From NCBI GenBank assembly GCA_905176665.1, contig CAJINA010000104.1, positions 36,699 through 100,698 on the forward strand: a DNA stretch of 64,000 nt. The letters run 5' to 3'. Below are positions 38,048-56,849 of this stretch, piece by piece. Made by a program: the position numbers and the translations under genes. The notes beneath the pieces are model-generated. The model did no database searches, was not told the origin of the DNA, and saw only the letters and a program-made list of their open reading frames with translations. Origin of the DNA: Olavius algarvensis Delta 4 endosymbiont (GTDB taxonomy: Bacteria; Desulfobacterota; Desulfobacteria; Desulfobacterales; CAJINA01). Every line of letters starts with the position of its first letter. The stretch's first letter is position 1.

Positions 38048-41000
38048 CTATCGATAATCACCAATAACCTGGAATGCAGCCCAATAATAAGGATGCCGGT
38101 ATTCCGGGTTCCCAATCATTTCTAACTGGGCCTGCCGCATGGCGGCAAACTTATTCATGGATTTTGGATTCGCGTAAAAGTGTTTCATCAACACACTGGT
38201 GGACTTGTCGTTCACACTCCAGAAGGTGCTCATGATCGAGGGTGTCCCGGCAAACATGAAGGCCCGGGTCAACCCCATGAGCTCGTCGCCGCTGGCCATT
38301 TTGCCCATAGCGGTGTTGCAGGCGCTAAGTGTAACCAGATAGGCATTCAGATTAAGCTCGAAGATTTCGGCGGTTTCCAGCCGGCCATCCTCATCGTTGC
38401 CCGGGGCCAGCCGCAGGCAGGAGAGCAGCGGGGTGTCCTGGTTGAATTCCCCGTGGGAAGCAATATGCAGAATATCGTAGTTGCCGGCGCTTTGCTTGAA
38501 AGCCGACTCTGAAGCCTGGTTCTGCGTCAAAACTGTGGTCTGATTGAAAAACTGCCTGATGTCCCGGACTTCAACCTCCGCATAGGGCAGCGTCATTTGG
38601 GGGTTACCCAGATTGGGGTTTCCGAGTGCCAGGACCGCCTTTTTAACAGTCTTCTTTTTATCAAAGACATGCCCGAGAACCGAGGCGCTGGGGGAGTAGC
38701 CAATCTCGTAGCTTTCAATCAAATATTTTCCTTCGAGGGTCAGGGCCTGGAAAGGCAGGTAGTGGAGAATCCCGTGCGGAATGATATATATTTTCCCGGC
38801 TGGGATGCCTGATAAAATGTCCGTGACCAGGACATCTTCCAACTGCCGGCTGATGGCCGCCAGGCTTTCCCGGGTTGGGGTCTGACGCGGCGCTTCCTGT
38901 GCGGCGACTTCCAGCCCGCGGACTGTATCCGGCCGACTGATAAGGTCGCGGTAGGCGCTGACAAGCTCAAGCAACTCGCTTGCGTCTATCTGTTTTTGAA
39001 CAAACCGAAAAGATTGCGGCCCGATGATCCAGGCAAATAGGTGCTTATCCCGGAAGTAATATTCCACCAGATGGGCATCCGCCGGAAGCAGTGCCTGGAC
39101 TTTTTCAATCGGCAGGGTGTCCGCTGACCGCAGGGATGCAAAATCTTTATTCCGACGAAACCAGCGCGAAAAGAACTCACCCAGGGCGCCCCGGGCGGCC
39201 GCTATTTCCCGGCTGTTGTCTATAGCCGCACCGCGTTCCTGGAACATACGCGTGTTCATTTCCGTACGGTATTGGACGTTCAACAAGTTCTCCCGCAGCC
39301 TTTTTTCTTCTTCCGTTATCTCCTTGAGGGCTTCGTTTTTTTGGCCGATGATTTTATCCGATCTGGCGATCAAATCAAGAAAGGCGCGTGCTTTTGATTT
39401 TTCTACATAATTATAGGCTGCTTTCGTTCGCTCTAGTTTAACCAAGCACTTTACCATGCGGGCGTAAGGCTCCTGCTTGTCCGACATGAAATTAATTTTA
39501 AGACCATGCGAAGTAAGTCGCGCCCGCGAAAATTCGATGGCATCGATTGCTTTTTGGTAGAATTCCACGGCCAACTCCAGCTTGTTTTCGGACTCGGCGA
39601 TCATCCCCTGGAGCTGGTAGGACCGCCACAGGAAGGCATTGGTCGGGGATTTTACGTTTTGCAAGATTTCCCGCGCCGGCTTGTATTGCCCCTGGTGGTA
39701 TAGTGTTTTGGCGATCCCGATTTGGATGCTGATCATCTGGTCATGGTATATGGCAGGCCGAACCTCGTAGCCAAGATACTTTTCTGCCTCCCTATATAGC
39801 CGCAGCGCCTCTACATAACCGCCGTTGCGCAGAGCGGCATCGCCCATGGTTTGATAGGCGATAGCCAGGGGGACAAACTTACCGATCTCCGTCGTCCGTG
39901 TATTGTAATGCGCCCAGGTGTCGTCAAAATTGTTTATGACCCGGTACGCATAGTATTCGGCCTCAGAACCATCCTGAAGGTGGTAGTGGTTGATGGCCAG
40001 GTAGGCACTTAATAGGAATTCCAGGTAATTCGCTTTGCCGATGATGTGTTTGGGCACCGGTCGTGACAGATTTTCTTTTACCCGCTCGATTTCCTTGAGG
40101 GCCTTTTCGCATTCGGCCACCGAGCTGTGGTAGTCCCCCACGAAGTTGTACGCCAAGGCGAGCCCGGAGCGCACTTTAGGCGTCAAGAGGGTCAGGGGTT
40201 GCTCCGCTTGCAGCCGGCTGGCTTTACGGTGGTAATCCAGGCTCTTATTGTATAGCCCGGTCCAGCGGTAATAATCGCCGATCCGGGCGTAAACATAGCT
40301 CAGGCTGTCGCCGGCCAGACTCCCGGGGTCGCTGATTTCCGCCAACAGATAGGGCAGCTTCACCAAAGCGATATAGAGTTCTTCATCGTTCAGGTCTTTA
40401 AAGAGGGCGAATTGATCCGGGAAGCGACGATCTTCTTTCACCCCGGTTGCCGATAGCTGTGAACGCCCTGATGTATGGGTTCTGATTATCGCCAGGTTTA
40501 TTCTTTTAATTATATACCGCTCATAATTAATCCTACCGCCCCTGTTGGCCGAGCGTACTTTCTGGTGGCCAAACTCGATGGTGTTTTTTCCGGAACGAAA
40601 ATAGGAAGCCGGCAGGTAGCGCTGGGTCCGGGCCTGCTTTTTTCGTTTTTTGGGCCCGGCTTGCCCGGCGTACCATTCGTCCTGATTAATCCCGTATCCT
40701 GCTCGCTTCAAAAAGCCAATCGGATGGCCGTTTAAAAAGAGCGGGTTTTCGGGATGATCTACATCCAGGGTATCGATGCTCAGGTAGGCGTACCGAATCC
40801 GCTGGGTCTCTTTCAGGTTGAAATCAAAGTGGTAGGATTGACGTACGCCGCCCCCGCTGCCTGATGAACCCATCTGCACGCCCAGGTTTCGGCTCTGAAA
40901 AAGCTCCTGCTCGAGGTGCAGGTTCTCCCTACCCTGCGGAATTGTGATTTGAAGGTTGGTGGATGAGCTGACACAGGCCCCTGCAAGCAGCGGCAGCAGG

Positions 41001-41074
41001 AACATCAAGATGATTAGGCGGATATTGTTTTTAAGGGCCTCCATTTGTACCCACCTTCCAATCCGTGTACACAC
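38048..41074 (-). CDS. CHAT-domain protein with TPR repeats, secreted/lipoprotein (paralogous architecture to 23233-26274)
   Basis: Signal peptide ending LLAGAC. TPR-like repeats. C-terminal CHAT (ILHIASHGEF...VTLSACNTAMG). Confidence 0.85.
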   Translation of the reverse strand: MCTRIGRWVQMEALKNNIRLIILMFLLPLLAGACVSSSTNLQITIPQGRENLHLEQELFQSRNLGVQMGSSGSGGGVRQSYHFDFNLKETQRIRYAYLSIDTLDVDHPENPLFLNGHPIGFLKRAGYGINQDEWYAGQAGPKKRKKQARTQRYLPASYFRSGKNTIEFGHQKVRSANRGGRINYERYIIKRINLAIIRTHTSGRSQLSATGVKEDRRFPDQFALFKDLNDEELYIALVKLPYLLAEISDPGSLAGDSLSYVYARIGDYYRWTGLYNKSLDYHRKASRLQAEQPLTLLTPKVRSGLALAYNFVGDYHSSVAECEKALKEIERVKENLSRPVPKHIIGKANYLEFLLSAYLAINHYHLQDGSEAEYYAYRVINNFDDTWAHYNTRTTEIGKFVPLAIAYQTMGDAALRNGGYVEALRLYREAEKYLGYEVRPAIYHDQMISIQIGIAKTLYHQGQYKPAREILQNVKSPTNAFLWRSYQLQGMIAESENKLELAVEFYQKAIDAIEFSRARLTSHGLKINFMSDKQEPYARMVKCLVKLERTKAAYNYVEKSKARAFLDLIARSDKIIGQKNEALKEITEEEKRLRENLLNVQYRTEMNTRMFQERGAAIDNSREIAAARGALGEFFSRWFRRNKDFASLRSADTLPIEKVQALLPADAHLVEYYFRDKHLFAWIIGPQSFRFVQKQIDASELLELVSAYRDLISRPDTVRGLEVAAQEAPRQTPTRESLAAISRQLEDVLVTDILSGIPAGKIYIIPHGILHYLPFQALTLEGKYLIESYEIGYSPSASVLGHVFDKKKTVKKAVLALGNPNLGNPQMTLPYAEVEVRDIRQFFNQTTVLTQNQASESAFKQSAGNYDILHIASHGEFNQDTPLLSCLRLAPGNDEDGRLETAEIFELNLNAYLVTLSACNTAMGKMASGDELMGLTRAFMFAGTPSIMSTFWSVNDKSTSVLMKHFYANPKSMNKFAAMRQAQLEMIGNPEYRHPYYWAAFQVIGDYR

Positions 41075-45875: not shown

Positions 45876-46304
45876 CTATTTGGCCGTTGTCGGATAGTCT
45901 GCCTCGATCCATTCATCCCAGCCGCCCTTGAGGGCATAAACGTTGTTGTAACCCTGCTCGACTAAATTGAACGCCACACTGGCGCTCGTCTGTTCCCTGG
46001 CTCAGTCGCAACACAACACAATCATCTGGTGCTTGGGGTACTTGTGGATCCAGGAGCCGACTTCCATCGGCTCTTCGCGCACGGCGCCGGCAATCAGGCG
46101 ATCACTCTTTTTCCAGTTTGGGCCATACCGGACATCAATAATGCTGACGGCCGGCTCGCCTAGCTTTTGTTTGAGCTCTTCCTTGGTTATCCTGGGTATG
46201 TGCTCCACCTGTTTGATGGATTTGATACGGTGGTGACAGCCGAAAACGAATACGAGGACGAGCAGGAAGCTTATGCGCAAGACTGCTTTTCGATAATTTC
46301 GCAT
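45876..46304 (-). CDS. Periplasmic single-domain rhodanese, predicted selenoprotein (UGA at 46002-46004 read as Sec; C-x-U active-site loop)
   Basis: ORF 46002-46400 ends IVLCCD at TGA. The frame continues AREQTSASVAFNLVEQGYNNVYALKGGWDEWIEADYPTTAK* to TAG at 45876, completing a rhodanese fold. Signal peptide from ATG 46304. SECIS-like hairpin 13 nt after the UGA. Confidence 0.7.
45969..45987 (-). other. SECIS-like stem-loop (rhodanese 1)
   Basis: Minus-strand gagcgcc-agtgt-ggcgttc, 7-bp stem with one G-U pair, 13-14 nt 3' of the UGA. Confidence 0.5.
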
Positions 46305-46326
46305 AACAATTCCTCGGCAATAAGTT

Positions 46327-46737
46327 TCATTTCTTTTCAGTGGGGTACCCGGCCAGCACCCAGGCATCCCAGCCCCCCTTGAGCGCAAAGACTTGCTCAA
46401 ATCCCAGTTCCTTCAACCGGAGCACCACACTGGCGCTCGTGTATTCGCTGGGTCAGGCGCAGTAGATGACATAGGTGTTCTGTTTGGGCGATTTCGTAGC
46501 CCACGCGCTGACGTTGTGGGGGTCCTTGCGAACAGCGCCGGCAATCTTGCGGTCGCTGCCACGCCAATCCGAAACCCTGCGTACGTCAATCACTGTAAGA
46601 TCCTGTTGATTGAGCATCGCGTTCAACTCGGCGGGTTCTATTCTAAGGGAATCATCGGATGCATAAGCGCCTGCGGACAGAGACAGAATCAAGGCACTGA
46701 GAAACAGTATTTTTAAAAGTGTGCGAGAATATTTCAT
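46327..46737 (-). CDS. Periplasmic single-domain rhodanese, predicted selenoprotein (UGA at 46453-46455 read as Sec), tandem paralog
   Basis: ORF 46453-46737 ends VIYCA at TGA. The frame continues PSEYTSASVVLRLKELGFEQVFALKGGWDAWVLAGYPTEKK* to TGA at 46327. Signal peptide. Same hairpin GAGCGCC-AGUGU-GGUGCUC downstream. Confidence 0.7.
46420..46438 (-). other. SECIS-like stem-loop (rhodanese 2)
   Basis: Minus-strand gagcgcc-agtgt-ggtgctc, 7-bp stem, 13-14 nt 3' of the UGA. The nucleotide block around the UGA is nearly identical between the two paralogs. Confidence 0.5.
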
Positions 46738-47281: not shown

Positions 47282-48058
47282 ATGGAAACTTATCTGTTAA
47301 TTGGCTGCATAGGCATTTTTACAGGTTTTACATCGGGACTGCTTGGCATTGGTGGGGGCATCGTCATGGCGCCCCTGCTTCTGTTTTTACCGCCACTATT
47401 CGGCCTGGAACCCTATACCATGCGGATTGTAGCCGGGCTTACCATTGTGATGGGACTATTAGGCTGCCTCTCCGGGGGATTAACCCACCGCAAGTTCGAC
47501 TACGTGTCAACCCGACTTTCCGTTTATATGGGGATCAGTATTTTCATTGCCGCGTTTGTGGGCGGGGCCGCGACGCAATTTATCGCCAACGAGATTCTCC
47601 TGTTCATTTTCGCCAGCATGGCCTTTGCAGCTGCGATTTTGATGTTTGCACCGCTCAACCATGATGTGGAAAACCCGGATACCGCCGCCCTTGTGTTTCG
47701 CAAATCCCGGGCCGTGACGGCAGCCACCGGGGTGGGTCTTTTCGGCGGCCTGGTTGGCCAGGGGGGGTCATTTATTTTGATTCCCCTGATGACGAACTAC
47801 GTCAATATTCCTACCCGCATCGCGATCGGCAGTAATCTGGCTGTCGTCTTTTTATCATCGTTGGCGGCTTTTATCGGCAAGGCCGTTACCGGACAAATCG
47901 AGTGGCTTTTATCCACCCCGATTTTACTGACAGTGCTCCCGGCCGCATCCCTCGGTGGCCATGTCAGCCGCAGGGTCCCGATAAAATGGCTTAGAAGAAT
48001 TCTGGCCGTCCTAATCGCACTGGCCGCTATCCGTATGTGGTATTCCCTCGTGATTTGA
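47282..48058 (+). CDS. TauE/SafE (TSUP, DUF81) family sulfite/anion exporter-type permease
   Basis: 258 aa, 7-8 TM, duplicated GIGGGIVMAPLL / GGSFILIPLM motifs typical of TSUP. Confidence 0.8.
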   Translation: METYLLIGCIGIFTGFTSGLLGIGGGIVMAPLLLFLPPLFGLEPYTMRIVAGLTIVMGLLGCLSGGLTHRKFDYVSTRLSVYMGISIFIAAFVGGAATQFIANEILLFIFASMAFAAAILMFAPLNHDVENPDTAALVFRKSRAVTAATGVGLFGGLVGQGGSFILIPLMTNYVNIPTRIAIGSNLAVVFLSSLAAFIGKAVTGQIEWLLSTPILLTVLPAASLGGHVSRRVPIKWLRRILAVLIALAAIRMWYSLVI

Positions 48059-48245
48059 GATCAGTGAACAAAATTGCATCCTCAAAATCCAGTTTTCGCT
48101 CTACGCGCAGGCTCGAAAGGCAAAGCGGTCTTGTATATCAAATGTGGAGGGACACTGATAGTATTTTGAAGATTTGCTGCCTGCGCCCGACGCCGAGTTT
48201 TAGCCAAGAGAGTTGATTGCGATTGATACCAAGGAGGAAGAAGGA

Positions 48246-48563
48246 ATGAAGATAGCAATGGTCCTGTGCCAGGAAAACGTCGAGGTCATTTGGAACGCCT
48301 TCCGGTTGGCCAATATGATGTTGGAAGGCATGGAAGACGTCAGCATTTTTTTAAATGGTCCGGCTGTTGAATATGAAAAGATGGATTCCGTGACTTTCCC
48401 CCTGCTTGAGTTGGCCAAGGCATTCACCCTTTCCGAAGGAGCGCTTTTTGCCTGAGGGAAGCTAATGGACCTTCACGGTGTGAAGGAAGGTCACCACAAG
48501 AGAGGGACCCAGAAAGTTCTCTACGACTTGATCAAAGAGAGCGATAAGATTTTGGCTTTCTAG
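48246..48563 (+). CDS. DsrE/DsrF-like small sulfur-relay-fold protein, predicted selenoprotein (UGA at 48453-48455 read as Sec)
   Basis: ORF 48213-48455 (MKIAMVLCQENVEVIWNAFRLANMMLEGMEDVSIFLNGPAVEY...GALFA) stops at TGA. The frame continues GKLMDLHGVKEGHHKRGTQKVLYDLIKESDKILAF* to TAG at 48561-48563. Strong SD aaggagga before ATG 48246. Hairpin 15 nt after the UGA. Confidence 0.6.
48470..48486 (+). other. SECIS-like stem-loop (DsrE-like gene)
   Basis: ccttca-cggtg-tgaagg, 6-bp stem, GGUG loop, 15 nt 3' of the UGA. Confidence 0.45.
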
Positions 48564-49070: not shown

Positions 49071-50807
49071 CTACAAGCTACGTTTGTATTTTTCCAGAAG
49101 CTTGGTAGTATATTTGTCAACCAAATTACCAACGCCGAACCAGGCGCGGGCGCGTATTTTTTCGTTATACATTTTTCCGGTTCTGGCATTATAGACCAGG
49201 ATAGTGACTGTTACGCCGTCAGAGTCGGCGTGAATCTTTATTAAAGCAGCGATATCCATATCCAGCTTCCGGCAGACTTTTCTGATCTGCTCCAAGTCCG
49301 GTTCCGGTTTTGAAAGAAAGGATTTCTTTTTCCAGACGGCAAGTTCTTTTTTGTCGATTTTCTCCGCCAAGGGTGTGATTGTCTCGGGCAAATCGCTGGT
49401 AATTTTGTATGATGCCGCGAATTCAACTGCGTCACTTTTTCCGGTAGCCAGGTACACGCCCTGTATGGCTGCCGCTTCAAAGTTAGCCAGACCCCCGGTG
49501 GCCGATTCGATCACATTTATCGGAAAGAGTGCCAGCTTATAGCGTTCCCGGAAGACGGGGCGCTCGGATTGCAAACTTTTATCTACCGCGGCTAACTGCG
49601 TTTGCTGTTGGGAAAGTTGAGTTTGCTGCTTGGTAAGCTGAGTTCGCTGATCGGCCAATTTGCGGTCGTTCTCCAATTTATCCAGACGCGCCTGCATTTT
49701 GGCATACGCGATCTCCTGTTTTTCCCTTTCCAGCTTGAGCCGTTCCATCTCAAGGCTTTTCTGTTGGGCCAGTTTATCCCTCTCCAGGGCAAGTTTCTGT
49801 TTCTCCATCTGGATACGCTGGCGCTGGAGTTCCAATTCCGCCGATGCGACCGCGGCTTTCTGGCGGGCTTGCTCTTCTTTTTTGGCGGCCGCCTGGGCAG
49901 TTGCTTGGGCAGCCGCTTGCTTGCGGGCCTGCTTTTCAGCCCAGGCCGCGTTGTAAAGCACGAATTGGCCATCCTGGTCCATCGGGATTTTTAAACGGCC
50001 CACGTTGGGTCGTTGGTCGCCGATCTGGGTCACCTTCTCCCACACCCGTGTATGAAAGAGGTTTTCCAGGTCGATGACTTCACGGTCGTTGGTTTTCAGG
50101 GCATTGATGAGGTAGTAAGCAAACAGGCTGTGGCCGTCGGCCCCGCCGTCGGCAACCGGCTCGACGCCGCCCGAAGAGATGACCTGGCGAGATCGCAGGG
50201 CGGCCTTCTGGGCCAGCTTTTCCTTGTAGCGCCGATCTTCCAGGGACATCAAAGACGGCCCGCCGCGCAGCATGGAACCGCTGTAGCAGGAGTCGGCAAT
50301 AACAACCACATTTTTGGCCTGTAATTTTTCGGAACTCAGGACCGCCTTGATATAGGAATTGGCAACCCACGTGGCCGGGTCTTTCAGGGCGCCCTCGGCC
50401 GGCACCCAGTAGCCGTCGCCGGTGAAATCAGCCAATTGCCCGTGACCGGCAAAGTAGACGAGCAGGTTGTCGTTCTGACTCATGGATACAGCCAGATACC
50501 GCAGGTCACCAGTAATCCTGATTCGGTTGGCATCCCGGTCTGTGCGCAGGATGACATTCTGCGGGTTAAAACCGTAATTGGTGATCAGGGTATCCCGGAT
50601 AACGGTGGCGTCTTTCACCGCGGTTTGGAGGCGGGGCCACTTGGCATAATCGTTTATACCGATGATAAGGGCGTAGTACGTACCCCAGGAACCGGCGTTT
50701 ACTTGGGTGGGTGCCACAGCCAGTCCCCTTTGCGGGGATTGGGCCATTGCGGGCGGCACCAGAACTATCAAGGCAAGTACCAGGAAAGGCAGAATTGTCC
50801 GTTTCAA
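49071..50807 (-). CDS. Secreted caspase-like (peptidase C14) protein with coiled-coil linker and shared C-terminal domain, paralog 3
   Basis: Signal peptide. YALIIGINDY...YFAGHGQL...VIADSCYSGS. Q/E/K coiled coil. C-terminal RERYKLALFP...WKKKSFLSKPEPDLEQ...LVYNARTGKMYNEK homologous to paralogs 1 and 2. Confidence 0.85.
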   Translation of the reverse strand: MKRTILPFLVLALIVLVPPAMAQSPQRGLAVAPTQVNAGSWGTYYALIIGINDYAKWPRLQTAVKDATVIRDTLITNYGFNPQNVILRTDRDANRIRITGDLRYLAVSMSQNDNLLVYFAGHGQLADFTGDGYWVPAEGALKDPATWVANSYIKAVLSSEKLQAKNVVVIADSCYSGSMLRGGPSLMSLEDRRYKEKLAQKAALRSRQVISSGGVEPVADGGADGHSLFAYYLINALKTNDREVIDLENLFHTRVWEKVTQIGDQRPNVGRLKIPMDQDGQFVLYNAAWAEKQARKQAAAQATAQAAAKKEEQARQKAAVASAELELQRQRIQMEKQKLALERDKLAQQKSLEMERLKLEREKQEIAYAKMQARLDKLENDRKLADQRTQLTKQQTQLSQQQTQLAAVDKSLQSERPVFRERYKLALFPINVIESATGGLANFEAAAIQGVYLATGKSDAVEFAASYKITSDLPETITPLAEKIDKKELAVWKKKSFLSKPEPDLEQIRKVCRKLDMDIAALIKIHADSDGVTVTILVYNARTGKMYNEKIRARAWFGVGNLVDKYTTKLLEKYKRSL

Positions 50808-51880: not shown

Positions 51881-52990
51881 TCAAGGTTCCCCTCGCCGCT
51901 TTTTAACCATCCAATAAGGCGCCTGGCTGTCTCTACTCAAGATCAATTCAGCCACCTTTAAAAATCCATTTTCCCTGGCATACATCAGGGCGGTTTTGCG
52001 TTTGTAGCATTCGGCGTTTACATTTGCACCGTTATCCAGCGGCAGCCGGACAATCCCTAAGTGACCGTGTTTCGCGGCTAGAATCAATGGTGTCCGGCCA
52101 CTTGCGTTGGTGGGTTCGATATGAGCCCCTTTCTTTAATAGTGTTTGGACAACATGGGTACGGCCCCAGGTCGCGGCAGCGCCGATTGGGGTAACGCCGT
52201 TTTCGTTAGATTTATTTAACTTGGCACCCGCCGATATAAGTGTGAGCACCACGTCCAGATGCCCCCTCTGGGCCGCAAGTATCAGCGCAGTCGAATCATT
52301 ACCTTTTTCACGTTTGTGAACATCCGCGCCTTTCTCGATCAAAAGGATCACAATTTTGATACGGCCGGAATAGGACGCCGCTATAAGGGGCGTAAAACCG
52401 ATAGTTCCACCGTTGGAATTAATGGGAACACCATCGGCCAACAGTTTTGAGACCTGATCGATATCACCTTTTCTCGCCGCATTCACCAGCTGATCGCTGG
52501 GGCTGGGACGATACTTTGTAATCACCGGGTTCAGCCGCTTGCGCAGTAAAAATACCAAAAACCCCATCACGGCACCTGCAAACATCCTCGGTGGCGTCGC
52601 CCGGATATGTTTTGTGATGTCAGCCCAGAATGGATTCTCCCAGAGGATGATCAGAGCCGCTATACCGGCAACCACCGCCCCAAGCCCAATAGCCCCTATG
52701 CCGACCATCCCATCGGGGGCCTGGGGGCCCTCAAGGTCTAAAGCTGAATATAGAATGCCCAGCACCATTCTACCCAGGGGATTATTATATGATGCCAGTC
52801 CACCCAAAATCATGCCCAGGAGGGTTGGCGCAATCAGCCAGAAGCGCGTGTAATGAAGGGCCGCACCCAAAAATGCTCCCAACATCGCACCAGCCGAAGC
52901 ATAGGTGAACGCTATCAGAATCTTTTCGAAGCCATCTTCAGATTTTGATCCGCGTCCGCCCGAATTGGAAAATTGATGGTTCGCCTTCAT
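51881..52990 (-). CDS. Ankyrin-repeat protein with N-terminal multi-TM region
   Basis: About 5 ANK repeats (TALILAAQRGHLDVVLTLISAGAKLN, TPLILAAKHGHLGIVRL..., TALMYARENGF...) after 4-5 hydrophobic helices. Confidence 0.8.
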   Translation of the reverse strand: MKANHQFSNSGGRGSKSEDGFEKILIAFTYASAGAMLGAFLGAALHYTRFWLIAPTLLGMILGGLASYNNPLGRMVLGILYSALDLEGPQAPDGMVGIGAIGLGAVVAGIAALIILWENPFWADITKHIRATPPRMFAGAVMGFLVFLLRKRLNPVITKYRPSPSDQLVNAARKGDIDQVSKLLADGVPINSNGGTIGFTPLIAASYSGRIKIVILLIEKGADVHKREKGNDSTALILAAQRGHLDVVLTLISAGAKLNKSNENGVTPIGAAATWGRTHVVQTLLKKGAHIEPTNASGRTPLILAAKHGHLGIVRLPLDNGANVNAECYKRKTALMYARENGFLKVAELILSRDSQAPYWMVKKRRGEP

Positions 52991-53224
52991 TTGACTTACT
53001 CAAAGTCGGCTAAGAAAATAGTGAGTATCTATTATAGAATTTGTTCTACCTTTTGTCATCCAGTAACGCAGTCCCTGAGTTATACATATCATTGTGGGCC
53101 ATCATCATCGCTAAATAACTCCTTCGATATTCATATATGAAAGGCCTAACTCATTAAATATATTAGTTTTGTCCAATTTTCACGGACCTAAACTGCCTCA
53201 ATGGAGATACAGTTTTTGGGGGGA

Positions 53225-53303
53225 GAAGGTAGCGACGGGAGTCGAACCGGCTACCCTTTTTGAAATCATTGAAGATATTGATATGGCCACGGTACATTCG
53301 CAG
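53225..53303 (-). repeat. tmRNA/tRNA 3'-end-like fragment, variant sharing island-side sequence with copy at 62933 (copy 2)
   Basis: ggtagcgacgggagtcgaaccggctaccc then tttttgaaatcattgaagatattg...gtacattcgcag, the same downstream block as 62965-63012. Confidence 0.55.
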
Positions 53304-53696
53304 AACCGGACACGCTTTATTCATAAAAAGTTTACAGAAAATCCAAATCTTTAGCAGATATCGTGACCGGCAAGAGTAATCGAACACTTGATTATTTGTT
53401 GCCTAAACGACAATTTGAGTTCCTAAATAACTTTCTGACTGGTCGATTATTTGACAAATTAGGCACTTATAGTATATAGTGCCGGTTATGAATATTTTCG
53501 GAGTCGACTTCACATCATCTGACTTTGTGCTGCTGGGGATATGCGGCGGAATTGTAATCTTCCTAATTGCCAACCGCATAGTCGGTGCACGGAAAAAAGG
53601 GGAGAATTAGGATCCCTGCCAAGAATTCTGTTTCACCAGTATTCATAAGGCAGGAGACGCCTCTTTCCAATCTTCAAGCCTCTCCATCTTAAAATT

Positions 53697-53939: not shown

Positions 53940-55289
53940 TTAAGAATCTTCAAAACACCAGGCCGTCATCTCAACGCCTAATTCTTTGACCCGGGCGTTG
54001 ACTTCTTTTAGCACGGCATCAAAGGATGATTCACTGACAAACTCATTCTCGATGCTGAATTTATTCGTGCCGTCTTTCAATATCTTTTGTAGATCTGTTT
54101 GCGGCAGCCTGGATACCCGGTCGCGTAATTGGCTTTGCAGGAGGTGCTCCAGGCGTCGACTAACGAGTTGGGGTTGACTGGCTGTGGTCCGCAGGTAAGT
54201 GTCGGCGTTCACGACATGCCAGGAGGCGGCATACTTTATTGAGACGTTGCCCTTATCGATAGTAAAGAATTTTCCGTTTCCTTCTAGTTTGTAGAATTTC
54301 TCCTCTGAAACCCGTTTGGTTTGCTCAAAAAATGGAATTTTAATATTGAAACCGGATTTGGATTGAACCCGATCGGGTTTTCCAAACCTGGATATAATGA
54401 CTTGTTGTCCGGGCTCAACTTTATACACCGCATCAAATGCCATCGCCAGGCCGATACCAGCTGCCAGGATTAAAACCGCAGGCCACAGAAATCGTGAACC
54501 CAGAATTTGATTCGAAATAGATTTAAGGCTCGCTTTTCCCTGCACCCGCCGGCCCGTCAATTCTGCATATGAAAGGGCGAGAATGGACAGGTACCATAAG
54601 ATAAAATAAGTTTCCAGGATGCCTGCCAGAAGTTTTATCAAGGTCTGGTTCACGTACATCTCGAAAGCTATACTAATAGAGCCGTTGATCAATCCCGGAA
54701 TAAGTACAAGCAGTATAAGAAGTTTGAACCCGCTGCCCTTTGACAGGTTCCATATACGCCTGGGGGTGACGTCGTGCCTGGCCGAAATGGCCGGAAGTGC
54801 CAAGGCAAAGCGAACCACGGGGTATGCCGCTGCGCCCACCACCAAAACCCAAATCAAGACGGATCCAGATGCCAACCAGGGTTTCGGGCTGTTGATTGCC
54901 ATGGAAAACCAGACAATTGCAGGAAGGACCAAATACAAAAGCAGTCCCAGAAATAGTGCCAGGAACAGACACAGTAACACCAACACCAGTAAAAAGAGGC
55001 CATACCGGCGCCACATCCCGGGTTCGGATTCGTGTCCTGAAGGGCCGATCACCAAGTGGCGCTGATATTCCAAACCAAACCAGGCGATTGATGTCCATAC
55101 GGGAAGCTGGGCAAACAATTGAAAGGTAGCGTTTAGCTTGAAATAGCTGGCTGTTAACAGCACAGCGATAGAGACAGCCAGAGCAAATCCTGGCCTCAAA
55201 AGTGCCTGCCATGATGTTGCGCTCAAACTGAATGGTGCAATAAGTGCTCTGGCTAAAATCGACCATATGCTCAATTGAGGAGTAGTCAC
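53940..55289 (-). CDS. Polytopic membrane protein with C-terminal SPFH/band-7 (HflC/K-like) domain
   Basis: About 8 TM helices then VEPGQQVIISRFGK...GFNIKIPFFEQ SPFH-like core. Confidence 0.55.
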   Translation of the reverse strand: MTTPQLSIWSILARALIAPFSLSATSWQALLRPGFALAVSIAVLLTASYFKLNATFQLFAQLPVWTSIAWFGLEYQRHLVIGPSGHESEPGMWRRYGLFLLVLVLLCLFLALFLGLLLYLVLPAIVWFSMAINSPKPWLASGSVLIWVLVVGAAAYPVVRFALALPAISARHDVTPRRIWNLSKGSGFKLLILLVLIPGLINGSISIAFEMYVNQTLIKLLAGILETYFILWYLSILALSYAELTGRRVQGKASLKSISNQILGSRFLWPAVLILAAGIGLAMAFDAVYKVEPGQQVIISRFGKPDRVQSKSGFNIKIPFFEQTKRVSEEKFYKLEGNGKFFTIDKGNVSIKYAASWHVVNADTYLRTTASQPQLVSRRLEHLLQSQLRDRVSRLPQTDLQKILKDGTNKFSIENEFVSESSFDAVLKEVNARVKELGVEMTAWCFEDS

Positions 55290-55630
55290 TGAACGATAGC
55301 CCCCTGAGAGTATAGGATGATCATTACATTTACCTTAGATCATAAGATAATTCCAGATCCCTTGCAAGAATCCTCGCATAAGGGCTCCAGTGTGTTTAAC
55401 TCTCAATCAATATGAGATCCGGCCGAACCTTTAGGTGCAATTGAGTGTGGTTTTGACGTGACTATTGGATGGAGGGTTTTTGCTAGCGTCTTTGTTGAAA
55501 TGCGTACAGCGAGAACCGGTATGTTTGGTGTTTGTAAGGTGCATATTTAGGCAAAAAATAAAATTCCGATAATTGCGCTAAAGTCCATACTGGAGAAAAT
55601 ACCACGTTTGATTAACGTAACTTTTGAAGT

Positions 55631-55665
55631 TGATGACGGCGGCGGGGTTCGAACCCGAGGTAGCC
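55631..55665 (-). repeat. Degraded tmRNA/tRNA 3'-end-like fragment (copy 3); a second T-arm-like remnant lies at about 55753-55775
   Basis: gacggcggcggggttcgaacccgaggtagcc versus gaggcggcgggagtcgaacccgcagcctacc. ggggatttgaacc at 55755. Confidence 0.4.
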
Positions 55666-56012
55666 TATAGAGGATAAGGGTTTTCTGTGGCACACCACCA
55701 CATAGATACCACCAATAGAATATCAAAGGGAAGATTAGTAATAGATGTGAAAAAGATAGCACGGGGATTTGAACCTATACCTCCGTATTCCCTTGGTTTG
55801 CTGAAAGGGCTCTGTTTCAGACCTACCTGTCTGCTTTGATTGCAAAACCTTATAATAAAAAAATGATGTAAAAACTATGGGTTATATGTTATGTTTTTCA
55901 AGAACATTACCGTCAGCAACATCGGTAACATTTGCTTGGCCGAGTACGTTGGTTTCGAATACGATACATTTACAATCTTCAGGTGTATAACTAAAGCTGG
56001 TCTTAGAATCAT

Positions 56013-56276
56013 ATGATAAGTTTTCTCTTTATAACCGGGATCGTACTAATATTTATAATTATCCTGGTGCTATTATGGCTTAAAATGGAAAAAGTGTATG
56101 ATTCGCAAATTAATATCGAGAATATCGATAGTTTTTACTTTTTTCTCTTTGGCATTAGCAAGGATGTCTACGACAAAGAAACTTGGATAAAAAACCAAAA
56201 ACGATACTTAATTAAATTAGCGATATTTACAGCATGTATCACCATGTCAGGAACATTATTGATATTGTTTATTTGA
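56013..56276 (+). CDS. Small hydrophobic hypothetical protein inside a low-GC islet
   Basis: 87-aa ORF, two TM, codon usage very A/T-rich relative to surrounding genes. Confidence 0.25.
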   Translation: MISFLFITGIVLIFIIILVLLWLKMEKVYDSQINIENIDSFYFFLFGISKDVYDKETWIKNQKRYLIKLAIFTACITMSGTLLILFI

Positions 56277-56462
56277 GACAATCAAGCAGTATTGGCAATT
56301 TGTTAATACCGGTATAACAGATACGAAAAATTTCTATCAGGGTTACTGTATTTGTGATATCTCCCGCCATTGCAAATTACGGTGAATTCTTGCCGGGAGT
56401 TAAGGCCAAGATTAGGAAGGTACTTACTGTTCTTACATAATTACGGGAGTATGATTTTATAA

Positions 56463-56849
56463 GTGAAAATTCTATTGATTGAGGATGTTCGGGTAGAAAG
56501 AAGGAAAATAAAAAGATGGCTGGAAAGGTTTGGATACGAGGTCATCGAGGCTTCCAATGGCATTGAAGGGCTCAAACTCTATCATGACCATGCACCGGAC
56601 CTGGTAATATCAGACATCGTGATGCCCGAGAGTGAAGGTATCCAATTGATAACTGATCTCAAAACCGCTGACCCCCACGCGACGATATTCGCTATGTCGG
56701 GTGCCGGCAGAGAGCGAGGCGAATACCTTTCCCTGGCAGAGGGCATCGGCGCTGTCCGTTCGTTTGTCAAACCGATCGATAAGAATGCACTCTTGAAGGC
56801 AATTAAGGAGTTTTTTCCAGATAAGCCGTTATTGGATGAACAAGATTAG
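56463..56849 (+). CDS. Single-domain response regulator (CheY-like), GTG start
   Basis: ILLIEDVRVERRKI...DLVISDIVMPESEG...K receiver motifs. Confidence 0.8.
   Translation: MKILLIEDVRVERRKIKRWLERFGYEVIEASNGIEGLKLYHDHAPDLVISDIVMPESEGIQLITDLKTADPHATIFAMSGAGRERGEYLSLAEGIGAVRSFVKPIDKNALLKAIKEFFPDKPLLDEQD

What the first reader, a model, noticed from the sequence alone, without database searches (positions are those of the whole stretch)
45876..46737. Tandem pair of periplasmic rhodaneses, each with UGA two residues after the catalytic Cys (C-x-U active-site loop)
Both ORFs in the track stop at TGA right after the rhodanese catalytic strand (IVLCCD|TGA and VIYCA|TGA). Reading through, each completes a canonical rhodanese C-terminal half (…TSASV…GY/F…V(Y/F)ALKGGWD(E/A)W…) before a true stop. 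Each TGA is followed 13-14 nt later by the same hairpin GAGCGCC-AGUGU-GG(C/U)G(U/C)UC, and the nucleotides around the UGA are conserved beyond what the protein requires. Both proteins have signal peptides. A Cys-x-Sec loop would allow a selenenyl-sulfide or perselenide chemistry distinct from ordinary rhodaneses.
Basis: partly seen in the sequence, partly recalled or inferred. Interest (0 to 1): 0.8.

Follow-up and report, generated by a model that had tools for sequence, protein, structure and literature searches.

The report
Known CxU rhodanese selenoprotein gene pair
Two adjacent genes in a sulfate-reducing worm symbiont encode exported rhodanese-type proteins with selenocysteine, read from an in-frame UGA, in a Cys-x-Sec active-site motif; the reading is correct, but the family is already catalogued and was already counted in this organism.

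Summary
Two minus-strand rhodanese genes (46737..46327 and 46304..45876) each carry an in-frame TGA. Exactly 14 nt after each TGA lies the same 7-bp/5-nt-loop hairpin, and the downstream frame completes the rhodanese domain.

Recoding of UGA as selenocysteine is strongly supported:
- Both TGAs and both downstream frames are conserved in all orthologous loci.
- All 82 gene copies in 76 distant genomes have TGA in that column.
- The hairpin shows compensatory C:G to U:A covariation at synonymous sites, and one loop G is invariant.
- Full-length homologues carry Cys, or Ser, in that column.

It is not new. Both proteins score about 149 bits (cutoff 115) against NCBIfam NF041203 "rhodanese_LYCAU, rhodanese-related (seleno)protein". 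Reviews list this CxU rhodanese form. The window comes from the Olavius algarvensis Delta 4 symbiont, for which a 2007 selenoproteome paper already counted two rhodanese-type selenoproteins.

The biochemical function is still unknown. Whether the invariant Cys or the Sec occupies the canonical catalytic position is unresolved; conservation and AlphaFold models favour the Cys. A third, known selenoprotein gene (DsrE-like) lies 1.5 kb away.

The parts
46327..46737 (-). Gene A: exported single-domain rhodanese selenoprotein, 136 residues with Sec95, motif VIYCA-U-PSEYTS. It ends at a real TGA stop at 46329..46327.
   Evidence: Translation. Pfam PF00581, E 4.4e-12. NCBIfam NF041203, 148.7 bits against a cutoff of 115. 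Orthologues keep the TGA and the downstream frame.
46453..46455 (-). In-frame UGA of gene A, the Sec codon (codon 95).
   Evidence: TGA is conserved in L001-L008 and in 82 of 82 distant copies.
46420..46438 (-). SECIS-type hairpin of gene A: GAGCGCC-AGUGU-GGUGCUC, starting 14 nt after the UGA.
   Evidence: -12.4 kcal/mol. Covariation and an invariant loop G across 88 distinct sequences.
46660..46737 (-). Predicted Sec-type signal peptide of A (residues 1-26, ...SAGAYA|SDD).
   Evidence: Read from the sequence. 70 of 81 family copies have a signal-like N-terminus by a crude rule. No dedicated predictor was available.
45876..46304 (-). Gene B: second rhodanese selenoprotein, 142 residues with Sec101, motif IVLCCD-U-AREQTS (LYCD-U-PSEQTS in orthologues). 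It starts 22 nt after gene A and ends at TAG.
   Evidence: Translation. Pfam PF00581, E 1.3e-12. NF041203, 148.9 bits. Orthologues. 43% identical to A.
46002..46004 (-). In-frame UGA of gene B, the Sec codon (codon 101).
   Evidence: Conserved in all orthologous loci.
45969..45987 (-). SECIS-type hairpin of gene B: GAGCGCC-AGUGU-GGCGUUC, starting 14 nt after the UGA.
   Evidence: -12.3 kcal/mol. None of its 7 codons shows synonymous variation among orthologues. Covariation.
46236..46304 (-). Predicted lipoprotein signal peptide of B (residues 1-22 plus Cys23: ...LVLVFVFG|C).
   Evidence: Read from the sequence. The Cys and the G-C junction are conserved in all orthologues. The fit to the lipobox pattern was judged by eye.

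Best explanation
These are two paralogous members of the known rhodanese_LYCAU family of bacterial selenoproteins (NCBIfam NF041203; the 'CxU' rhodanese form). They lie in the genome of the sulfate-reducing Delta 4 symbiont of the gutless worm Olavius algarvensis.

Steps shown or strongly supported:
- The two genes lie 22 nt apart on the same strand and are probably co-transcribed.
- In each, the in-frame UGA is recoded as selenocysteine. A small stem-loop that starts 14 nt downstream puts its loop 21 nt from the UGA. It has the features expected of a bacterial SelB-binding SECIS element.
- The full products are single rhodanese domains with an N-terminal export signal. A is a soluble periplasmic protein; B is probably a lipoprotein.

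Steps inferred:
- The family has a two-residue insertion at the rhodanese active site, giving an invariant Cys, one variable residue, then Sec (Cys or Ser in other members).
- The Cys most likely sits at the canonical position, directly after the central strand, and carries sulfane sulfur as a persulfide.
- The Sec at loop position 3 is most likely a neighbouring nucleophile. It could accept that sulfur, or selenium, or close a selenenyl-sulfide. The protein would then act as a periplasmic sulfur/polysulfide carrier or a thiol-selenol redox protein.
- No biochemical function has been established for any member of the family.
For: - Family membership: NF041203, 148.7 and 148.9 bits against a cutoff of 115, covering profile positions 6-126 and 8-126 of 126. 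PF00581.
- Source organism: P0001 is 100% identical and is named for the Olavius algarvensis Delta 4 endosymbiont.
- Recoding:
  - Both TGAs and both downstream frames are conserved in orthologues of 72-79% identity, with synonymous changes.
  - 82 of 82 copies in 76 genomes of Desulfobacterota, Nitrospirota, Geobacter, Acidobacteriota and others have TGA at this column.
  - An exhaustive profile search finds 568 clusters at E <= 1e-10. Nearly all of the top 150 are ORFs of about 94 aa that end at this codon.
  - Full-length homologues have Cys in the U column.
- SECIS:
  - The five inner pairs are 99-100% paired in 88 distinct sequences.
  - One pair is 47 C:G, 35 U:A, 6 U:G and 0 unpaired, at two synonymous third positions (0 of 10000 permutations reach this).
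  - Loop position 2 is G in 88 of 88 sequences, although the encoded residue varies among S, R, G and W.
- UGA is also used as a stop: gene A itself ends at TGA, so the code is not reassigned.
- Export: 70 of 81 family copies have signal-like N-termini.
- Fold: the AlphaFold model of the CxC homologue P0137 (pLDDT 80.8) matches solved rhodaneses including Sud (1qxn) and GlpE (1gmx).
- Cys at the canonical position:
  - The first Cys is at least 90% conserved while the U column is U, C or S.
  - In the P0137 model the strand is 81-85, the coil is C86-A-C-P-D-E91 and the helix starts at 92.
  - In the canonical-loop relative P0058 the strand is 87-91, the coil is C92-A-K-G-L-T97 and the helix starts at S98.
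- Literature:
  - The CxU rhodanese form is listed as a predicted selenoprotein family.
  - Delta 4 has 23 selenoproteins, including SelD and 2 rhodanese-related sulfurtransferases.
Against: - There is no direct evidence of selenium incorporation for these genes.
- The window holds no selA/B/C/D and no tRNA-Sec. Rfam has no matching model. Sec competence therefore rests on the literature for this organism.
- The hairpin is short (5-7 bp), and the folding energy of the region is not significant on its own.
- Function:
  - No gene neighbourhood is conserved across the family, so context gives no functional clue.
  - HMMER alignments to 6mxv (both domains) and to 1yt8 domain 4 place the Sec column, not the Cys, on the catalytic Cys, with no gap up to the GGW motif.
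  - The structural models are of homologues, not of the window proteins. One of them was built from a single sequence and has pLDDT 66.6.
Confidence: 0.9

Rival explanations
1. Register alternative. The Sec, not the Cys, occupies the canonical catalytic position of the rhodanese loop (U-P-S-E-Y-T corresponding to GlpE C-Y-H-G-N-S). The upstream Cys is an extra residue at the end of the strand that acts as a resolving partner.
For: - Ungapped spacing from the U column to the helix, the G-[FY] motif and the GGW motif equals that of canonical rhodaneses.
- phmmer aligns the U column with the catalytic Cys of both domains of 6mxv and of 1yt8 domain 4.
- 'TS' after the loop aligns with the canonical 'RS' position (reasoning from the sequence).
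- Sec is usually the reactive residue in selenoproteins (general knowledge).
Against: - The first Cys is nearly invariant, whereas the U column can be Ser in a large subfamily (YCASPNE).
- From the N-terminal side, the first Cys aligns without a gap with the only Cys of the canonical-loop relative P0058.
- AlphaFold places the first Cys directly after the strand, with a six-residue coil, in both P0137 and P0058.
- The query had Cys substituted for Sec, so the C-C match is partly an artefact.
Confidence: 0.3
2. The protein is a thiol/selenol oxidoreductase rather than a sulfurtransferase. The Cys-x-Sec pair cycles between a reduced form and a selenenyl-sulfide form, for example in periplasmic redox homeostasis or in reducing a small oxidised sulfur or selenium compound.
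For: - Reviews note that most predicted prokaryotic selenoproteins resemble thiol oxidoreductases with paired Cys/Sec motifs.
- CxC homologues exist.
- E. coli periplasmic rhodanese PspE can feed disulfide-bond pathways (recalled from memory, not tested here).
Against: - The Ser forms keep only one Cys and could not form an intramolecular bond.
- No Dsb-type or thioredoxin-type neighbour is conserved.
- There are no biochemical data.
Confidence: 0.3
3. The UGAs are ordinary stop codons. The genes encode truncated proteins of 94 and 100 residues, or are pseudogenes, and the downstream similarity is a decaying remnant.
For: - Public gene calls annotate exactly these truncated ORFs.
- The folding energy around the hairpin is not significant.
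Against: - The downstream frame is conserved with synonymous substitutions.
- TGA is retained in 82 of 82 copies from distant phyla.
- Covariation occurs in the hairpin.
- Cys homologues are full length.
- A half rhodanese domain would lack the active-site loop and helix.
Confidence: 0.02
4. UGA is read as Trp or Gly, through a reassigned code or hairpin-stimulated near-cognate read-through, rather than as Sec.
For: Two database homologues show W in that column: P0085 for the rhodanese and P0195 for the DsrE-like protein.
Against: - Gene A and several orthologues terminate at TGA, so the code is standard.
- The column pairs with Cys, not Trp, in full-length homologues.
- The W entries are most simply gene calls made with a code in which TGA is Trp.
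- The organism has a documented selenoproteome.
Confidence: 0.03

Closest known systems
NCBIfam NF041203 'rhodanese_LYCAU', rhodanese-related (seleno)protein. [quoted passage not shown] It was first predicted by Zhang & Gladyshev 2005 (Bioinformatics 21:2580).
   Same: Both window proteins score above the curated cutoff over the whole profile. They share the [LIV]-Y-C-[AD]-U motif, the N-terminal signal, the size of about 135 aa and the hairpin after the UGA.
   Different: Nothing of substance differs. Window protein B has LCCD-U instead of LYCD-U (Tyr to Cys; orthologues keep Tyr) and a lipoprotein-type signal. The tandem A-type plus 'YCD-U' B-type arrangement recurs in only a minority of genomes.
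Rhodanese-related sulfurtransferase selenoproteins of the Olavius algarvensis symbionts (Zhang & Gladyshev 2007, PMC1976440).
   Same: Same organism set. Table 1 lists 8 such genes, 2 of them in Delta 4. The window is Delta 4.
   Different: I could not confirm that the two counted genes are these exact loci, because no supplement is held. That paper also reports a UxU variant in the family, which is not seen here.
Sud, the periplasmic polysulfide-sulfur transferase of Wolinella succinogenes (PDB 1QXN).
   Same: It is a periplasmic single-domain rhodanese. There is weak sequence similarity (E 7.5e-4), and the fold of the homologue model matches it (TM 0.65).
   Different: Sud has one catalytic Cys in a six-residue loop and no Sec. 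It works with polysulfide reductase, and no psr genes are seen beside these genes. Membership is not claimed.
GlpE and PspE, the single-domain thiosulfate sulfurtransferases of E. coli (PDB 1GMX for GlpE).
   Same: Same fold and size. PspE is also periplasmic (recalled from memory).
   Different: NCBIfam GlpE scores are far below cutoff (25.7 and 35.3 bits against 102). Their loop is canonical (C-X4-S) without the two-residue insertion, and they have no Sec.
Other rhodanese selenoprotein forms: forms 1, 2 and 4 (UxxS or UxxG, with Sec replacing the catalytic Cys) and TsoB (UxxxxU).
   Same: They are rhodanese domains with Sec at or near the active site.
   Different: The Sec position and motif differ. 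The TsoB model scores only 19-24 bits against a cutoff of 805.

Membership tests
NCBIfam NF041203 rhodanese_LYCAU (rhodanese-related selenoprotein, CxU form) | Whole-protein score above the curated cutoff (115 bits) over the full-length profile. | tested here: met
   A scores 148.7 bits over profile positions 6-126 of 126. B scores 148.9 bits over positions 8-126 of 126 (with Cys written in place of Sec).
NCBIfam NF041203 rhodanese_LYCAU (rhodanese-related selenoprotein, CxU form) | Signature motif L-Y-C-A-U (Cys, one residue, then Sec or Cys) at the end of the central strand. | tested here: met
   A has VIYCA-U. B has VLCCD-U, and its orthologues have VLYCD-U. The same motif occurs in 82 copies elsewhere.
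Bacterial selenoprotein (general criteria) | In-frame UGA conserved among homologues, with a conserved coding frame downstream. | tested here: met
Bacterial selenoprotein (general criteria) | SECIS stem-loop shortly downstream of the UGA, with a conserved G in the apical loop. | tested here: met
   The hairpin starts 14 nt after the UGA. Covariation and G in 88 of 88 sequences at loop position 2. The numerical bSECIS criteria are recalled from memory. No dedicated SECIS predictor was available.
Bacterial selenoprotein (general criteria) | Homologues with Cys aligned to the Sec position. | tested here: met
   P0137, P0141, P0158, P0159 and P0185 have Cys. A larger subfamily has Ser.
Bacterial selenoprotein (general criteria) | The genome encodes selA, selB, selC (tRNA-Sec) and selD. 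| not testable with these tools
   None lies in the 64-kb window (no tRNA). The literature reports 23 selenoproteins, including SelD, for the Delta 4 symbiont. A third selenoprotein gene lies in the window.
Bacterial selenoprotein (general criteria) | Selenium demonstrated in the protein. | not testable with these tools
   This needs 75Se labelling or mass spectrometry.
Rhodanese homology domain (PF00581) | Pfam match above the gathering score, and the alpha/beta rhodanese fold. | tested here: met
   46.8 and 48.5 bits against a cutoff of 22.2. The model of homologue P0137 matches solved rhodaneses with probability 1.00.
Rhodanese homology domain (PF00581) | Catalytic Cys as the first residue of a six-residue active-site loop between the central strand and the helix. 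| tested here: inconclusive
   The family has a two-residue insertion here. Conservation and the models favour the Cys as first loop residue. Ungapped alignment to PDB chains favours the Sec.
Cdc25 / Acr2-type phosphatase or arsenate reductase (rhodanese fold, CX5R loop) | Seven-residue C-X5-R loop. | tested here: not met
   There is no Arg six residues after either the Cys or the Sec (CAUPSEY and UPSEYTS).
Sud-type polysulfide-sulfur transferase | Periplasmic single-domain rhodanese functionally coupled to polysulfide reductase. | not tested
   The export signal and the fold fit. No psr genes lie among the neighbours examined. There is no biochemical test.

The most novel reading that the evidence does not exclude
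The tandem arrangement may itself be a functional unit: a soluble 'YCA-U' paralogue followed by a membrane-anchored 'YCD-U' lipoprotein paralogue. It recurs in distant lineages (Desulfobacteraceae L009, Nitrospirota L013 and L024, L087). It could form a two-component periplasmic sulfur or selenium relay built on an extended Cys-x-Sec rhodanese loop. In this symbiont it sits next to a TauE-family permease and a DsrE-like selenoprotein. Such a relay has not been described or tested.
Probability: 0.15. Interest if true: 0.45.

Novelty: already known. Interest (0 to 1): 0.15.

Why it matters
As a discovery it matters little. The family has a curated NCBI model and appears in selenoproteome catalogues, and this organism's selenoproteome was published in 2007.

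Its practical value lies in annotation. Public gene calls for these loci, and for hundreds of homologues, are truncated 'hypothetical proteins' of about 94 residues that miss the active-site loop.

The open question is biochemical. It is not known what an exported rhodanese with a Cys-x-Sec loop does in anaerobic sulfur-cycling bacteria, or why the family overwhelmingly uses Sec rather than Cys. This window does not make that question more tractable than existing data do.

Tried and rejected
- Rfam (gathering threshold) and ARAGORN on the whole window found nothing. No Rfam model matched these hairpins, and no tRNA-Sec lies in the window.
I therefore searched with the N-terminal halves and modelled homologues instead.
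- I looked for conserved neighbours across 76 loci by scanning the nearest upstream and downstream ORFs against Pfam. The results were heterogeneous (best 7 of 69 DndB; 4 of 73 pyruvate kinase or DUF547), so there is no conserved operon.
- The promoter and terminator scan around the pair gave counts at the shuffle expectation and was uninformative.
- The thermodynamic z-scores of the 64-nt regions are weak. Support for the hairpin comes from covariation instead.
- I looked for the DsrE-like gene in the orthologous loci L001-L008 by tblastn. It is absent there.
- Pfam and NCBIfam give no hit for the DsrE-like ORF. Its identity rests on named homologues.
- No supplement is held for the 2007 paper, so I could not verify that its two Delta 4 rhodanese genes are exactly these loci.
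- The structure tools return no coordinates. The Cys-versus-Sec register could therefore be judged only from DSSP strings.

Full report
**What is in the sequence**

Two ORFs lie head to tail on the minus strand, 22 nt apart. Gene A runs from 46737 to 46327. It reads MKYSR...NTYVIYCA, then TGA (46455..46453), then PSEYTSASVVLRLKELGFEQVFALKGGWDAWVLAGYPTEKK, and ends at a TGA stop. Gene B runs from 46304 to 45876. It reads MRNYR...QMIVLCCD, then TGA (46004..46002), then AREQTSASVAFNLVEQGYNNVYALKGGWDEWIEADYPTTAK, and ends at TAG.

Exactly 14 nt after each TGA is a 7-bp stem with a 5-nt loop. In A it is GAGCGCC-AGUGU-GGUGCUC (46438..46420). In B it is GAGCGCC-AGUGU-GGCGUUC (45987..45969). Each is worth about -12.3 kcal/mol. 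The read-through products match Pfam Rhodanese end to end and are 43% identical to each other.

**Is the UGA decoded?**

I fetched the orthologous loci from related gutless-worm metagenomes (L001-L008, 72-79% protein identity). All keep both genes in the same order, both in-frame TGAs, and an open, conserved downstream frame with many synonymous changes. Among amino-acid-invariant codons, 105 of 167 outside the hairpin vary synonymously. Only 2 of 13 inside it do (Fisher p = 0.0019).

An exhaustive profile search with the N-terminal halves found 1133 cluster representatives (568 at E <= 1e-10). Nearly all of the top 150 are ORFs of about 93-100 residues that end exactly at the profile's last column, so they are also cut at this codon.

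A scan of one genome per species found at least 533 loci. In the best 80 loci I found 82 copies in 76 loci, and every copy has TGA in that column followed by x-x-E-x-T-S-A and the rest of the domain. The hosts are mostly Desulfobacterota/Thermodesulfobacteriota, Geobacter relatives and Nitrospirota. Single hits come from Acidobacteriota, Dehalococcoidales, Synergistales and the Olavius Delta 1 symbiont.

The few full-length database homologues carry the following in the U column:
- Cys: YCACPD and YCSCDN (P0137, P0141, P0158, P0159, P0185).
- Ser: a YCASPNE subfamily, one member of which NCBI names 'rhodanese-related (seleno)protein'.
- Trp: once, most simply a gene call made with a code in which TGA is Trp.
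- A two-residue deletion that restores a canonical loop (P0058, YCAKGLTS).

Gene A itself ends at TGA, so the genetic code is not reassigned.

**The hairpin**

I compared 88 distinct sequences.
- The five inner base pairs are paired in 99-100% of them.
- The pair formed by the third position of the Ser codon (AGY) and the third position of the Ala codon (GCN) is C:G 47 times, U:A 35 times, U:G 6 times and never unpaired. No permutation out of 10000 reaches this, and sliding the partner destroys the pairing.
- Loop position 2 is G in all 88, although the residue encoded there varies among Ser, Arg, Gly and Trp, whose codons all have G in the middle.

This is RNA-level constraint. It fits what is known of bacterial SECIS elements: a stem-loop a short fixed distance after the UGA, with a conserved loop G contacted by SelB (recalled from memory). 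The free energy of the surrounding 64 nt is not significant by itself, and Rfam has no matching model.

**Is it known?**

Yes.
- Both proteins score 148.7 and 148.9 bits (cutoff 115) against NCBIfam NF041203, 'rhodanese_LYCAU, rhodanese-related (seleno)protein', an equivalog model named after this very motif.
[quoted passage not shown] It cites Zhang & Gladyshev 2005 for it.
- The 2022 review lists the same family as 'COG0607 form 2, CxU' and notes that the functions of such predicted selenoproteins are unclear.
- The N-terminal ORF of gene A is 100% identical to a protein of the Olavius algarvensis Delta 4 endosymbiont.
- The 2007 selenoproteome study of these symbionts lists 8 rhodanese-related sulfurtransferase selenoproteins, 2 of them in Delta 4. 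It also reports 23 selenoproteins in Delta 4 overall, including SelD.

The two Delta 4 genes counted in 2007 are very probably the two genes here. I could not check this, because no supplement is held.

**Anatomy and likely mechanism**

Protein A has a classical signal peptide (n-region with K2, R5 and K9; a hydrophobic core; AYA|S). Protein B has a hydrophobic core ending FVFG-C23, and this Cys is conserved in all orthologues, so B is probably a lipoprotein. By a crude rule, 70 of 81 family copies have signal-like N-termini and 15 have lipobox-like ones. The family as a whole is therefore exported.

Relative to canonical rhodaneses, the family has a two-residue insertion exactly at the active site.
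- Counted from the N-terminal side, the invariant Cys aligns with the single Cys of P0058.
- Counted from the C-terminal side, the Sec aligns with the catalytic Cys of GlpE-like proteins. HMMER aligns it that way to both domains of 6mxv and to 1yt8 domain 4.

Two observations favour the Cys as the canonical residue.
- It is nearly invariant, while the next-but-one column can be U, C or S.
- AlphaFold models place it directly after the central strand, followed by six coil residues. In P0137 the strand is 81-85, the coil is C86-E91 and the helix starts at 92 (pLDDT 80.8). In the canonical-loop control P0058 the strand is 87-91, the coil is C92-T97 and the helix starts at S98 (pLDDT 66.6).

The P0137 model matches solved rhodaneses, including the periplasmic polysulfide-sulfur transferase Sud and GlpE.

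My best reading, at about 65:35, is that the Cys carries sulfane sulfur and the Sec at loop position 3 is an adjacent nucleophile that can take over the sulfur or close a selenenyl-sulfide. This part is inference, and no member of the family has been characterised.

**Context**

Across the family the flanking genes are heterogeneous, so there is no conserved operon partner.

In this lineage the pair is transcribed divergently from a TauE/SafE-family permease gene (47282..48058). It is followed by a periplasmic binding protein and a PAS hybrid histidine kinase. This order is kept in most of the orthologous loci fetched; L005/L006 lack TauE.

Downstream of TauE, in this genome only, lies a DsrE-like ORF (48243..48563, +). 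It has an in-frame TGA at 48453..48455 and a 7-bp hairpin with a GGU loop. It has 340 homologues. Most are 69-residue ORFs cut at the same place, many of them named DsrE, and the full-length ones have Cys in that column. This is the known DsrE-like selenoprotein family, and the 2007 paper counted one such gene in Delta 4.

**Verdict**

It is an ordinary member pair of a catalogued selenoprotein family in an organism whose selenoproteome has been published.

Three small open points remain: the unknown biochemical role of the family, the Cys-versus-Sec register in the extended loop, and the recurrence of the soluble-plus-'YCD-U' tandem in distant genomes (L009, L013, L024, L087).

Noticed in passing
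window 48243..48563 (+); TGA at 48453..48455; hairpin at about 48470..48486: A third selenoprotein gene, DsrE-like: ...TLSEGALFA-TGA-GKLMDLHGV..., with a CCUUCAC-GGU-GUGAAGG hairpin 14 nt after the TGA. It has 340 homologues. Most are 69-aa ORFs cut at the same codon and named DsrE, and the full-length ones have Cys there (LFACGKL). There is no Pfam or NCBIfam hit, and it is absent from the orthologous loci L001-L008.
   Followed up: partly
window 47282..48058 (+): A TauE/SafE-family permease gene is transcribed divergently from the rhodanese pair (545-bp intergenic region). It is followed on its own strand by the DsrE-like selenoprotein gene. The TauE-rhodanese juxtaposition is kept in most of the gutless-worm symbiont relatives fetched (L005/L006 lack it) and is not found across the wider family.
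   Followed up: partly
L009 3291/3738, L013 3252/3728, L024 3225/3691, L087 3291/3739 (also L080, L076): The tandem of a 'YC[AS]-U' copy followed about 450 nt later by a 'YCD-U-PNEQTSASVA' copy recurs in Desulfobacteraceae, Nitrospirota and other MAGs. The A/B duplication is therefore old rather than specific to the symbiont.
   Followed up: partly
P0170-P0184 (alignment A2): A sizeable full-length subfamily has Ser in the Sec column (YCASPNEERS), plus an insertion of a few residues after the active-site helix. NCBI names one member 'rhodanese-related (seleno)protein'. Ser at a Sec/Cys position is unusual and bears on which residue is catalytic.
   Followed up: no
P0085 (rhodanese) and P0195 (DsrE-like): Database proteins with Trp exactly in the Sec column. 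Most likely these are gene calls made with a genetic code in which TGA is Trp, not real Trp codons. The DNA was not checked.
   Followed up: no
L001/L003 2230..2604 (+), and public gene calls in general: Public annotations call the rhodanese genes as 94-aa and 100-aa 'hypothetical proteins'. Between the cupin and TauE genes, the relatives have a 124-134-aa ORF with no Pfam hit on record, and its nature was not examined.
   Followed up: no
L004 (Logan assembly), gene A hairpin loop: One assembly has AGUAU instead of AGUGU in the loop (Val to Met). It keeps the invariant G at loop position 2 but changes position 4. This is either a natural variant or an assembly error.
   Followed up: no
window 53000..53500 and 55500..56500: Two low-GC stretches (0.37 and 0.32-0.40, against about 0.5 elsewhere) contain no long ORF. 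They flank a Band-7/SPFH-domain membrane protein gene (53940..55289).
   Followed up: no
window 38048..41074 (-), 49071..50807 (-), 51881..52990 (-): Three genes with domains more typical of eukaryotes or signalling proteins lie near the pair: a TPR+CHAT protein, a caspase-like (Peptidase_C14) protein and an ankyrin-repeat membrane protein. Such genes are often noted in symbiont genomes.
   Followed up: no
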